Below, one piece after another: positions 29,053 to 30,898 of a stretch of DNA of 36,492 nucleotides. Within the stretch, counting starts at the first letter, position 1. Every line of letters starts with the position of its first letter. Position numbers and translations under genes: made by a program. The notes beneath the pieces were generated by a model. That model was not told the DNA's origin. It searched no databases and was given only the letters and a program-made list of their open reading frames with translations. The DNA lies in contig CAZDTP010000041.1 in NCBI GenBank assembly GCA_964508365.1, positions 1 to 36,492 on the forward strand. Direction: 5' to 3'. Source of the DNA: an uncultured archaeon. Lineage in GTDB: Archaea > Asgardarchaeota > Lokiarchaeia > Sigyniarchaeales > SOKP01.

Positions 29053-29505
29053 ATGAAAAAATTAAAAATATTTCTTGATACATCTGTATATAGCGCAATT
29101 TTTGATCAAAGAGATCCAAATCGCCAAAAATTAACACAAGATTTTTGGAATAATATTGGAGATTATGATTTGTATTATTCCGATATAACCACAGAAGAAA
29201 TAAGTGCCGTTTTAGATGAAAAATTGAGAAACAAAATGAAAAAGCTATTAGAAAAGGGTAAATATATTGAAATAACAACAGAAGTGAATGAATTAGCTAA
29301 AGTTTATGTTAAAGAAGATCTTATCCCCGAAAGGTATGAAAACGATGCTTTATTAATTGCTTTAACATCTGTCTATTCATTGGATATTTTAGTTAGTTGG
29401 AACTTTAAGCATTTAGTTAAAAGAAAAACTCGCATAGGAGTTAATTTAAGTAATCTTAAAAAGGGTTATAAGTCAATTGAAATTTTAGCTCCACCAGAGT
29501 TATAG
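29053..29505 (+). CDS. PIN-domain (VapC-like) ribonuclease, putative toxin
   Basis: IFLDTSVY, TEEI, NDALLIA, LVSWNFKHL. Confidence 0.88.
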   Translation: MKKLKIFLDTSVYSAIFDQRDPNRQKLTQDFWNNIGDYDLYYSDITTEEISAVLDEKLRNKMKKLLEKGKYIEITTEVNELAKVYVKEDLIPERYENDALLIALTSVYSLDILVSWNFKHLVKRKTRIGVNLSNLKKGYKSIEILAPPEL

Positions 29506-29515
29506 AGGTATTAAT

Positions 29516-29680
29516 ATGTTATATGACATTGAAGAATTATTAAAAGAAGTGAATCTATCAGATAAAGAAAAGGAAGAAATTATTAAAGATATAAGAGATG
29601 AATTTCCTCAAGACGAAATGCTTTTTGAATTACATTTATTCCGTGCTATCCAGTTTTTAAAAAAGCAGAAAAATAGGTAA
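29516..29680 (+). CDS. 54-aa acidic helical protein, putative antitoxin (not in ORF track)
   Basis: GAGGT SD directly after the PIN stop. Translates to MLYDIEELLKEVNLSDKEKEEIIKDIRDEFPQDEMLFELHLFRAIQFLKKQKNR. Confidence 0.7.
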   Translation: MLYDIEELLKEVNLSDKEKEEIIKDIRDEFPQDEMLFELHLFRAIQFLKKQKNR

Positions 29681-29767: not shown

Positions 29768-30898
29768 ATGATGTCTGAAACTTTTGAGAACTTTATGATC
29801 TTCGGACTAGAAAGTACCGGAGAAAAAGTAAGGTTAGATATTTCTGAAGATACCTTTCGGTTGAATAACGGTCAAAATATATTAGACCCTAACCAAGTGT
29901 TAATTATTGTCAAGGAGGGTATAAGGAGAATCTACATCTGGAAAGGTATCAATTCACACGTCAGGAAAAAATTTATAGCATCTCGGATTGCTGCTGAATT
30001 ACAAAACGATTTGGTTGTTGCTGGGCATTTTCATCGGTGTAAAATTATCTCAGTAGACCAAGGAGACGAACCTAACGATTTTCTAAGAGCATTTGGTTTT
30101 ACGACAGTAGACTTACCAGAATTTATTGATCGTAATTCAAAAGAGTTCAAGCAAATTCATTCCACATCTGAAATAACGGCGCCAGAATTAGACGGAAAGA
30201 ATGTTCACAGTTGGAATGGCCCTCCTCCTTCTTTAAAAGGAGATATAGCGTCTCCAACCATTACTCAAACTTCGATGAAAAGAACAAAAGAAGAACTTAA
30301 AAAGACAATTAAGCCCTTTAAAACTGACCAAATGGAAATAATTGAGAAAATAGTTAAAAATAATGTCCCCGCTGATCTAAAAAGACAAAACCTAATCTTA
30401 GGTAATTTTCAGATTTTTGGTGCTGCGATTAAAAAAGCTAAAATATTTGGCAAAGAACTAGAAGAAGTCAAATGGGAACCAGTAAACTCGCTACCAGAAG
30501 GAATCATTGAACTAACTGATCGCACTCTAAGAATTTATGTAGATGCTATATATAAGACTATTGAAGGAATAGAAATTCTCCAAAAACTCGATATGTCTAA
30601 AGCCGTAGAACCGATGATTGAAAAGGACGAATTTGTGGACTACAGTACTTGGACTGTTAAACAATTAAAAACTTATTGTCAAGAGTACAAAATAAAAGTG
30701 CCTGTATCTTATAGAAAAGCACAAATTATCAGCCTCATCAAAAAAGATTCCCCCCAAGAATCCATTAAACAAGAATCAAATTATAAGACTTGGACTGTAA
30801 GGCAACTGAAAGAATACTGTAAAAAAAACGATATCCAAGTGATATCTACATACAGAAAAGCAGATTTACTTAAACTTGTAGAAGAACATCAAAAATAG
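29768..30898 (+). CDS. Asgard gelsolin-domain protein with middle domain and two C-terminal HeH/Rho-N-like repeats
   Basis: LDPNQVLII...IYIWKGINS...IASRIAAEL...VDQGDEPNDFLRAFG matches the gelsolin repeat pattern. The C-terminus has two WTVxQLKxYC...I.V...YRKA repeats. Confidence 0.8.
   Translation: MMSETFENFMIFGLESTGEKVRLDISEDTFRLNNGQNILDPNQVLIIVKEGIRRIYIWKGINSHVRKKFIASRIAAELQNDLVVAGHFHRCKIISVDQGDEPNDFLRAFGFTTVDLPEFIDRNSKEFKQIHSTSEITAPELDGKNVHSWNGPPPSLKGDIASPTITQTSMKRTKEELKKTIKPFKTDQMEIIEKIVKNNVPADLKRQNLILGNFQIFGAAIKKAKIFGKELEEVKWEPVNSLPEGIIELTDRTLRIYVDAIYKTIEGIEILQKLDMSKAVEPMIEKDEFVDYSTWTVKQLKTYCQEYKIKVPVSYRKAQIISLIKKDSPQESIKQESNYKTWTVRQLKEYCKKNDIQVISTYRKADLLKLVEEHQK
30638..30880 (+). repeat. 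Two 34-aa intragenic repeats (30638-30739 and 30779-30880)
   Basis: DYSTWTVKQLKTYCQEYKIKVPVSYRKAQIISLI versus NYKTWTVRQLKEYCKKNDIQVISTYRKADLLKLV. Confidence 0.9.

What the first reader, a model, noticed from the sequence alone, without database searches (positions are those of the whole stretch)
29768..30898. Gelsolin domain fused to two HeH/Rho-N-like repeats: possible actin-to-nucleic-acid linker
Seen in sequence: an N-terminal gelsolin-type repeat (~residues 1-110), a P/S/T-rich linker, a beta-rich middle domain, and two 34-aa repeats resembling the helix-extended-helix pattern (T-V-x-E/Q-L-K...I...RKA-x-L/I). Established knowledge: Asgard gelsolins regulate actin, and HeH-fold domains (Rho-N, SAP, LEM) bind nucleic acids or chromatin partners. 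Inference: the protein might tether actin filaments to DNA or RNA, for example for nucleoid positioning or segregation. I do not know this fusion to be described.
Basis: partly seen in the sequence, partly recalled or inferred. Interest (0 to 1): 0.75.

Follow-up and report, generated by a model that had tools for sequence, protein, structure and literature searches.

The report
Asgard gelsolin with tandem HeH tail
This Lokiarchaeon-type gene encodes a member of the known Asgard "gelsolin plus domain X" family of actin regulators that also carries two small HeH/SAP motifs of the DNA-binding type, so it is a plausible but untested link between the archaeal actin skeleton and the chromosome.

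Summary
ORF 29768-30898(+) encodes a 376-aa protein with four parts. Residues 7-112 form a gelsolin-fold domain whose best structural match is Thorarchaeota ProGel bound to actin. A disordered linker follows. Residues 186-275 form a confidently modelled alpha+beta domain with no Pfam family and no convincing match among solved structures. Two HeH/SAP/Rho_N-type repeats at 289-328 and 336-376 pass Pfam's cut-offs.

The protein belongs to the Asgard Gel-Mid family. That architecture matches the published 1DGelX/GelX class, whose Thorarchaeota member severs and nucleates actin in vitro. I could not obtain the characterised sequence to confirm that its domain X is homologous to Mid.

- The middle domain is predicted to form a homodimer (score 0.52, best control 0.00).
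- Gel-Mid-Mid paralogues exist in other Asgard genomes.
- The two-HeH form is one clade with its own conserved gene neighbourhood.
- The same HeH subtype sits on this lineage's topoisomerase VI B subunit.

That the HeH tail binds nucleic acid, and that the protein tethers actin to DNA or RNA, remain inference. No paper I could search mentions HeH/SAP on Asgard gelsolins. This scan has already flagged and followed up the same family on other genomes, with the same reading. Verdict: a new variant of a known kind, of moderate to high interest.

The parts
29768..30898 (+). Whole gene, 376 aa plus stop. It stands alone between opposite-strand neighbours in relatives.
   Evidence: There are 410 homologues. 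The arrangement MFS(-) | gene(+) | wHTH-TPR(-) is kept in L009-L011 and L012-L022. In L023 only the MFS gene was matched.
29786..30103 (+). Gelsolin-homology (GH) domain, residues 7-112. The long helix 65-84 carries the invariant V-R-K-K-F-I stretch, and W58-x-G60 is invariant.
   Evidence: phmmer hit to Thor ProGel 7c2f_B at E 4.2e-5. Foldseek top hit 7c2f_B, TM by target 0.79. Invariant columns. Several orthologues, and the own-genome paralogue on C75, have a Pfam Gelsolin hit; the C75 score of 24.9 bits is above the cut-off.
30104..30322 (+). Disordered linker, residues 113-185, with two conserved islands: E126-F127 and W149-x-G151-P-P-P154.
   Evidence: pLDDT below 50. Conservation. The W-x-GPPP profile hits only members of the two-HeH family.
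30323..30592 (+). Mid domain, residues 186-275: one helix plus five long antiparallel strands. I take it to be the 'domain X' of the GelX class. It is predicted to form a homodimer through residues 241-260.
   Evidence: Model at pLDDT 90.9. No Pfam family. Foldseek against PDB gives best E 0.33. VIA wide search gives best Z 3.5. In the ESM Atlas only Promethearchaeota relatives match. Homodimer score 0.52 against best control 0.00.
30632..30751 (+). HeH/SAP-type repeat 1, residues 289-328.
   Evidence: Pfam Ish1, HeH, Rho_N and SAP are all above their cut-offs. Helix, loop, helix in the model.
30773..30895 (+). HeH/SAP-type repeat 2, residues 336-376.
   Evidence: Repeat-to-repeat BLASTP E 9e-13. 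A profile of the repeats hits FluMu gp35 (E 0.0023), the Ku70 SAP domain (0.031) and the Tho1 SAP domain (0.62).

Best explanation
The gene encodes a GelX-type (single gelsolin domain plus domain X) actin regulator of a Loki-type Asgard archaeon. It carries an added nucleic-acid-targeting tail.

Proposed working:
1. The N-terminal gelsolin domain binds the barbed face of Lokiactin through its invariant long helix, as Thor ProGel does on actin. This is inferred from homology.
2. The Mid/X domain pairs two chains through strand 241-260. This is predicted, not measured. The particle would then have two actin-binding heads. That fits the nucleating, capping, severing and short-bundle behaviour published for Thor 1DGelX.
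3. A flexible linker leads to two basic HeH/SAP motifs per chain, four per dimer. These bind nucleic acid, most likely double-stranded DNA of the nucleoid. This is inferred from family membership and from the same motif on Topo VI B.

Net effect: actin capping, severing or nucleation is concentrated at, or filament ends are tied to, the chromosome.

My odds for the separate steps: GelX-family actin binder 0.85; Mid homodimer 0.55; HeH binds nucleic acid 0.5; the whole chain as stated 0.35.
For: Gelsolin domain:
- Sequence and fold match solved Asgard gelsolin-actin complexes.
- The most conserved stretch of the protein is the helix that contacts actin in those complexes.

Actin context:
- The genome encodes at least six actin-family genes and seven GH-domain proteins.
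- The published Thor 1DGelX binds rabbit actin (Kd 7.7 uM), nucleates and severs it, and does so without calcium (PMC7444086).
- Five gelsolin homologues co-immunoprecipitate with Lokiactin in L. ossiferum (PMC13716822).

Mid domain:
- The core Gel-Mid architecture is widespread. It is seen in 126 of 201 Asgard genomes at E<=1e-10 and in 50 Gel-Mid representative clusters.
- Homodimer prediction: score 0.52 against best control 0.00. That mark was reached by 20 of 30 proteins solved as pairs of one chain and by 1 of 23 solved as single chains. The runs agree in at least 97% of contacts, and partner pLDDT is at least 79. My own alignment was used, so these counts hold only roughly.
- No similar solved structure exists, so the pass is not from memory.
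- The predicted interface holds the invariant residues L249, R252, T253 and R255.
- Tandem Gel-Mid-Mid paralogues exist. This is what one expects if Mid pairs with Mid.

HeH tail:
- Four Pfam HeH-type families are above their cut-offs.
- The tail has pI 9.5.
- The Lys at the start of helix 2 is invariant.
- The same subtype sits on the 1115-aa Topo VI B of this genome. That Topo VI B tail is found in 21 of 21 sampled genomes of the family.
- The same subtype lies in-frame upstream of the gene that follows smc.
Against: - No binding was measured for any part.
- I could not obtain the Thor 1DGelX or L. ossiferum B35_GelX sequences. Transfer of their biochemistry therefore rests on shared architecture, not on a tested alignment.
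- Those papers describe X as a coiled coil or as disordered. That differs from the beta-rich Mid domain modelled here.
- HeH-fold domains are not all nucleic-acid binders. LEM binds the protein BAF. The Rho N-terminal helical part is not Rho's main RNA site (my own knowledge).
- The same motif also occurs on a GIFT-domain protein and on a protein with a weak mu-homology match. Neither is obviously DNA-related.
- Many Gel-Mid paralogues lack HeH, so the tail is an accessory and not part of the core mechanism.
- The homodimer pass is a model's confidence only. Up to about 19 in 100 single chains may reach the mark.
Confidence: 0.35

Rival explanations
1. A purely cytoskeletal protein. The HeH repeats, small basic helical modules at the C-terminus, serve as filament-side or protein-protein binding sites. 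They would play the part that the headpiece plays in villin, so the protein would sever, cap or bundle Lokiactin with no link to nucleic acid.
For: [quoted passage not shown] They saw short bundles (PMC7444086). F-actin is acidic and the tail is basic. Gelsolin repeats followed by a small C-terminal helical module is the villin layout (my own knowledge). LEM, a HeH-fold domain, binds a protein (my own knowledge).
Against: Pfam gave no villin-headpiece match, while four HeH-type models were above their cut-offs. HeH has two helices and the headpiece has three. The closest relatives of this HeH outside the family sit on Topo VI B. The many Gel-Mid paralogues that lack HeH would then have no side-binding element.
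Confidence: 0.22
2. An RNA-directed adaptor. The HeH repeats bind RNA or ribonucleoprotein, as SAP does in Tho1 and as in the Rho_N context. The protein would couple mRNA or ribosomes to actin, or regulate actin near sites of translation.
For: The Rho_N model is above its cut-off. The Tho1 SAP domain is among the weak profile hits (E 0.62). One relative of this HeH subtype is fused to ribosomal protein L21 (P0302, Pfam PF00829).
Against: The strongest in-genome parallel is a DNA enzyme, Topo VI B. The profile hits to the Ku70 SAP domain and to FluMu gp35 are at least as good as the Tho1 hit. No RNA-binding domain accompanies the repeats.
Confidence: 0.13
3. An actin-sensing, DNA-bound regulator. 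It would be functionally analogous to MRTF (RPEL actin sensors plus a SAP domain). The protein sits on DNA through HeH, and its activity or residence there is switched by free G-actin bound to the gelsolin head.
For: An actin-monomer-binding module combined with a SAP-type module is the MRTF logic (my own knowledge). A single gelsolin domain binds G-actin, as in the ProGel-actin crystal complex whose chain 7c2f_B is the best match here.
Against: There is no RPEL motif and no activation or other regulatory domain. No homology to MRTF was seen in any search. The conserved wHTH-TPR neighbour is only convergent synteny among close relatives.
Confidence: 0.07

Closest known systems
Thorarchaeota 1DGelX (Akil et al. 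2020, PNAS; PMC7444086) and L. ossiferum B35_GelX (bioRxiv 10.1101/2025.11.30.690169; Nature 2026, PMC13716822)
   Same: One N-terminal gelsolin-homology domain, a long linker and a non-gelsolin C-terminal 'X' part. It is restricted to Asgard archaea. Its size is about that of actin (43.5 kDa here; Thor 1DGelX co-migrates with actin).
   Different: Those papers call X a predicted coiled coil or a disordered domain of unknown function. They mention no HeH or SAP. Here X resolves into a compact beta-rich Mid domain plus two HeH motifs. I could not align the characterised sequences, so I did not test whether their X is homologous to Mid.
Thor ProGel and Asgard 2DGels bound to actin (PDB 7c2f, 7c2g, 7c2h, 7whf, 7whg)
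   Same: The gelsolin fold and the W-x-G motif. They are the best sequence and structure matches for residues 37-111.
   Different: ProGel is the GH domain alone. The 2DGels have a second GH domain, a WH2-like motif and calcium control. Loki2DGel ends in a possible zinc-binding domain rather than HeH (PMC9433394).
One-HeH Gel-Mid-HeH proteins of other Asgard archaea (about 310 aa; MAGs titled Thor-, Hod-, Odin- and Hermodarchaeota, and LCGC14_1765580 from the Loki's Castle metagenome)
   Same: The same Gel, Mid and HeH domains at 40-50% identity. Together with the two-HeH form they make a strongly supported clade (100/99).
   Different: They carry one HeH, not two. They lack the W-x-GPPP linker motif. 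Their genomic neighbourhood is different.
SAP/HeH/LEM-like DNA-binding modules (Ku70 SAP, Tho1 SAP, HeH of inner-nuclear-membrane proteins, Rho N-terminal subdomain)
   Same: A motif of about 35 residues: helix, extended loop, helix, with a conserved Leu in helix 1 and a conserved Lys at the start of helix 2. The Pfam models are above their cut-offs.
   Different: It is attached to an actin-binding domain in a prokaryote. The ligand is untested.
Villin (gelsolin repeats plus C-terminal headpiece)
   Same: The layout: gelsolin-type head or heads with a small helical C-terminal add-on.
   Different: There is no headpiece homology in Pfam. There is one GH domain rather than six. This is an analogy only.
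MRTF/myocardin family (RPEL actin sensors plus SAP)
   Same: An actin-binding element and a SAP-type element in one chain.
   Different: No RPEL motifs and no homology. This is an analogy only.

Membership tests
Gelsolin-homology domain (Pfam PF00626) | Sequence match to the family model above the curated cut-off | tested here: inconclusive
   This protein scores 16.1 bits against a cut-off of 21. Several orthologues have a precomputed PF00626 hit. The own-genome paralogue on C75 scores 24.9 bits. phmmer to the solved Thor ProGel gives E 4.2e-5.
Gelsolin-homology domain (Pfam PF00626) | Gelsolin fold: a central sheet packed between one long and one short helix | tested here: met
   The AF2 model's top Foldseek hits are 7c2f_B (TM by target 0.79), then fragmin, adseverin, villin and gelsolin domains. 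Nine hits have E<=1e-3 and all are gelsolin-type.
Gelsolin-homology domain (Pfam PF00626) | W-x-G signature, part of the D-W-G motif | tested here: met
   W58 and G60 are invariant in 35 sequences. In the ProGel alignment the Asp column holds K49, next to the invariant E50. The Asp part of the motif is therefore uncertain.
Gelsolin-homology domain (Pfam PF00626) | Binds actin | not testable with these tools
   Needs pyrene or TIRF assays, or co-sedimentation.
Asgard 1DGelX / GelX class | A single GH domain followed by a non-GH C-terminal extension, in an Asgard archaeon | tested here: met
   Architecture Gel-linker-Mid-HeH-HeH. All named relatives are Promethearchaeota. The genome encodes actin-family genes.
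Asgard 1DGelX / GelX class | Domain X homologous to that of the characterised Thor 1DGelX | not tested
   No accession or sequence could be had from the papers. No hit named SMTZ1-83 appeared.
Asgard 1DGelX / GelX class | Calcium-independent actin severing and nucleation | not testable with these tools
   A biochemical property reported for the Thor protein only.
HeH / SAP / Rho_N / Ish1 group of Pfam families | Sequence match above the curated cut-offs | tested here: met
   Ish1 44.9 bits (cut-off 26.6), HeH 38.6 (28.9), Rho_N 36.3 (24.9), SAP 35.4 (23.9). Each model matches two stretches.
HeH / SAP / Rho_N / Ish1 group of Pfam families | Helix, extended loop, helix of about 35 residues | tested here: met
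   H297-306 with H317-325, and H344-353 with H364-375. Block pLDDT is 79-88.
HeH / SAP / Rho_N / Ish1 group of Pfam families | Binds DNA or RNA | not testable with these tools
   Only context is available: a basic tail and the same motif on Topo VI B.
Villin-type (gelsolin repeats plus headpiece) | C-terminal villin headpiece domain | tested here: not met
   The Pfam scan at E<=10 lists no headpiece family for the tail. HeH-type models explain it.

The most novel reading that the evidence does not exclude
A dimeric gelsolin-type capper that is anchored on the chromosome by four HeH motifs. Lokiactin filament ends would be physically coupled to DNA. This would be an archaeal actin-based device for positioning or segregating the nucleoid, and a prokaryotic forerunner of the use of HeH/SAP modules to tie chromatin to cellular scaffolds in eukaryotes.
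Probability: 0.12. Interest if true: 0.85.

Novelty: new variant of a known kind. Interest (0 to 1): 0.58.

Why it matters

The published GelX/1DGelX class has an unexplained 'domain X'. This gene family gives that class a concrete anatomy: a compact, probably dimerising, Asgard-only domain. In several clades there are also one or two HeH/SAP motifs of the kind that eukaryotes use on chromatin and nuclear-envelope proteins.

If the tail binds DNA, this would be, as far as I know, the first candidate for a direct actin-to-chromosome link in an archaeon. It is directly testable with recombinant protein and in the cultured Asgard strains. If the tail does not bind DNA, the family still offers a simple explanation, dimerisation, for the nucleating and bundling behaviour of 1DGelX.

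Tried and rejected
- Middle domain, known fold: the Pfam scan of 71 Mid domains found nothing consistent. Foldseek against PDB gave best E 0.33. The VIA-align wide search gave best Z 3.5, with PAS, GAF, hot-dog and roadblock-like rows all tied at Z about 3. The ESM Atlas returned only the family itself. I name no fold. These misses do not show that the fold is new.
- NCBIfam gave nothing useful.
- Tying the family to the characterised Thor 1DGelX: there are no held supplements and no accession in the text. A search seeded with a Thorarchaeota Gel-Mid-HeH protein returned no hit named SMTZ1-83. The link therefore rests on architecture only.
- 'LKKT' at residues 177-180 looks like a WH2 core. 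It is not conserved among orthologues (PKKT, PKQS and others). I rejected it as chance.
- The ~360-aa 'Rho termination factor N-terminal domain-containing' Asgard proteins: I considered that they might be HeH-kleisins. They are another GelX-HeH clade.
- Operon or neighbour-based function: the gene is flanked by opposite-strand genes (an MFS transporter and a wHTH-TPR protein). That synteny holds only among close relatives, so I drew no functional inference from it.
- Calcium sites: from the ProGel alignment alone I could not decide whether a type II site exists.

Full report
**Observation.** The window has about 32% G+C. It carries an ORF at 29768-30898(+) of 376 aa.

Pfam places two stretches, 292-325 and 338-374, in four related families: Ish1, HeH, Rho_N and SAP. 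All four are above their curated cut-offs. The Gelsolin model reaches only 16.1 bits against a cut-off of 21. The two repeats are 47% identical to each other (E 9e-13).

The gelsolin assignment is nevertheless sound:
- phmmer against PDB sequences gives Thorarchaeota ProGel (7c2f_B) as the best hit, E 4.2e-5, over residues 37-111. Asgard 2DGels, villin and adseverin follow.
- An AF2 model built on 35 orthologues has 7c2f_B as its top Foldseek match (TM by target 0.79). All nine hits at E<=1e-3 are gelsolin-type domains.
- W58-x-G60 and the long helix V65-R-K-K-F-I70...A75..L78-Q79 are invariant.

The linker 113-185 is modelled as disordered.

**The middle domain.** Residues 182-278 were folded alone with 71 diverse relatives. 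They give a confident model (pLDDT 90.9) of one helix followed by five long antiparallel strands. The domain has no Pfam family and no convincing solved relative: Foldseek best E is 0.33, and the VIA wide search gives best Z 3.5. In the ESM Atlas it matches only Promethearchaeota proteins of the same family.

A homodimer prediction passed. The score was 0.52 against a best control of 0.00. That mark was reached by 20 of 30 proteins solved as pairs of one chain and by 1 of 23 solved as single chains. The runs agreed in at least 97% of contacts, and partner pLDDT was at least 79. My own alignment was used, so these counts hold only roughly. The predicted interface is a symmetric strand pairing of residues 241-260. 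It contains the invariant L249, R252, T253 and R255. No similar complex is solved, so the pass is not from memory. It remains a model's confidence, not a measurement. Paralogues with two Mid domains in tandem exist in other Asgard genomes (11 loci). That fits a Mid-Mid pairing.

**Family and distribution.** The large protein database holds 410 homologues. The 120 best listed are almost all about 376 aa. All are unnamed or 'hypothetical', and they come from Lokiarchaeota, Promethearchaeota or Hermodarchaeota MAGs.

An exhaustive search of cluster representatives, read with profiles I built for each part, gave these architectures: Gel-Mid 50, Gel-Mid-HeH 17, Gel-Mid-Mid 3, and Gel-Mid-HeH-HeH 2. 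In species-level genomes I found 32 Gel-Mid-HeH loci, including MAGs titled Hod-, Odin- and Thorarchaeota. There were also 11 two-HeH loci and 11 Gel-Mid-Mid loci. In a sample of 201 Asgard genomes, 126 had a match at E<=1e-10, including 45 of 45 in the window's own family.

A maximum-likelihood tree of the Gel-Mid part puts all two-HeH proteins in one clade (100/100). That clade lies inside a strongly supported group (100/99) with one-HeH forms. All 12 two-HeH loci have the MFS gene upstream, and 11 of them (not L023) the wHTH-TPR gene downstream. None of the one-HeH loci has either. No genome I saw had both forms. The two-HeH gene is therefore a lineage-specific derivative, at its own locus, of a widespread HeH-bearing GelX.

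**Own genome.** The assembly (4.07 Mb, 149 contigs) encodes at least six actin-family genes and seven GH-domain proteins. These include two Gel-Mid paralogues without HeH, on C75 and C15. The C75 paralogue passes Pfam Gelsolin at 24.9 bits.

The same HeH subtype occurs on three other proteins in this genome:
- A 1115-aa topoisomerase VI B subunit (Topo-VIb_trans at 3.5e-29, with HeH at 950-976). Its 255-aa tail is found in 21 of 21 sampled genomes of the family, and full-length matches occur in eight of them.
- A GIFT-domain protein of 425 aa.
- The gene that follows smc, where the motif lies in-frame upstream of the start.

**Literature.** Akil et al. (PMC7444086) defined ProGel, 1DGelX and 2DGel. 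Their Thor 1DGelX binds rabbit actin (Kd 7.7 uM). It nucleates at low ratios, inhibits assembly at 1:1, severs without calcium, and makes short bundles. Its domain X was 'predicted coiled coil with no homology', and the authors guessed that it holds a side-binding element.

PMC9433394 counts two 1DGelXs in MK-D1 and three in Loki GC14_75. A one-HeH homologue carries a Loki's Castle metagenome name, LCGC14_1765580. The L. ossiferum work reports nine GH proteins, five of which co-immunoprecipitate with Lokiactin, and a 'B35_GelX' whose X is of unknown function. None of these papers, nor any other paper I could search, mentions HeH, SAP or LEM on an Asgard gelsolin. I could not obtain the characterised sequences. 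Homology of their X to Mid is therefore untested here.

**Mechanism.** What the tools support is a gelsolin head, a flexible linker, a compact domain predicted to form a homodimer, and a basic tandem HeH tail (pI 9.5). Three things are inferred:
- The head binds the barbed face of Lokiactin.
- The dimer supplies two heads, which would explain nucleation and bundling.
- The four HeH motifs bind nucleic acid, most likely DNA, given the parallel with Topo VI B.

I put the full chain at 0.35. Rivals:
- The tail is a filament-side or protein-binding module (0.22).
- The tail binds RNA (0.13).
- The protein is an MRTF-like actin-sensing DNA factor (0.07).

I put it at about 0.12.

**Earlier findings of this scan.** The same family was flagged on at least a dozen other genomes, and several of those were followed up. 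Their reading matches mine: the GelX family, an HeH add-on, and the same motif on chromosome enzymes. I reached the domain assignment, the literature link and the Topo VI B parallel independently before reading them.

**Verdict.** A real, conserved gene. It is a new variant of a known kind (GelX with a tandem HeH tail). Its anatomy is well supported and its function is untested.

Noticed in passing
window 29053-29680 (+): A PIN-domain ORF of 150 aa (Pfam PIN 29.5 bits) is followed 11 nt later by a 54-aa ORF. It looks like a small toxin-antitoxin-type cassette. It sits between the MFS gene and the gelsolin gene, and tblastn with the PIN protein found no match in any of the 12 syntenic loci of relatives.
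   Followed up: partly
L005:1513-2556 (+) (own genome, contig C34, just after a 1432-aa SMC gene): The 272-aa gene that follows smc has an HeH motif (Pfam Ish1 27.7 bits) in-frame upstream of its GTG start. That frame has no ATG, GTG or TTG. An ATG at L005:1559 lies in the +1 frame just before an A-run (aga aaa aat). This could be a frameshift site, an unusual start codon or an assembly error.
   Followed up: partly
L080 (own genome C34:20932-24279, +): The topoisomerase VI B subunit is extended to 1115 aa by a tail that carries the same HeH subtype. The tail is conserved in all 21 sampled genomes of the family.
   Followed up: partly
L081 (own genome C36:2083-3363, -): A 425-aa protein with an IFT52-type GIFT / ABC_transp_aux domain ends in the same HeH motif.
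   Followed up: no
window 30200-30229 (residues 145-154): A linker motif, V-H-x-W-x-G-P-P-P, is conserved in all 35 two-HeH orthologues aligned. My profile of it did not hit any one-HeH form. It may be a docking peptide for an unknown partner.
   Followed up: partly
L054, L056-L062, L067, L069, L070: Asgard paralogues with one gelsolin domain and two tandem Mid domains (393-446 aa).
   Followed up: partly
P0298, P0307 and about 20 similar proteins: Asgard proteins of about 360 aa are named by NCBI 'Rho termination factor N-terminal domain-containing protein'. P0298 shows a sub-threshold Gelsolin match and a 'DEPxEF' motif, so at least that one is another gelsolin-plus-HeH protein.
   Followed up: partly
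P0247 (347 aa, source EukProt transcriptome): The best non-family hit of the HeH profile is a eukaryotic transcriptome protein with three nearly identical HeH repeats. Whether it is truly eukaryotic or a contaminant is unknown.
   Followed up: no
P0293 (618 aa, Promethearchaeota): An N-terminal HeH motif is followed by a weak match to the adaptor-complex medium-subunit (mu-homology) family.
   Followed up: no
own genome C15:17837-18967 (-) and C15:25638-26360 (-): An actin-family gene lies about 7 kb from one of the Gel-Mid paralogues.
   Followed up: no
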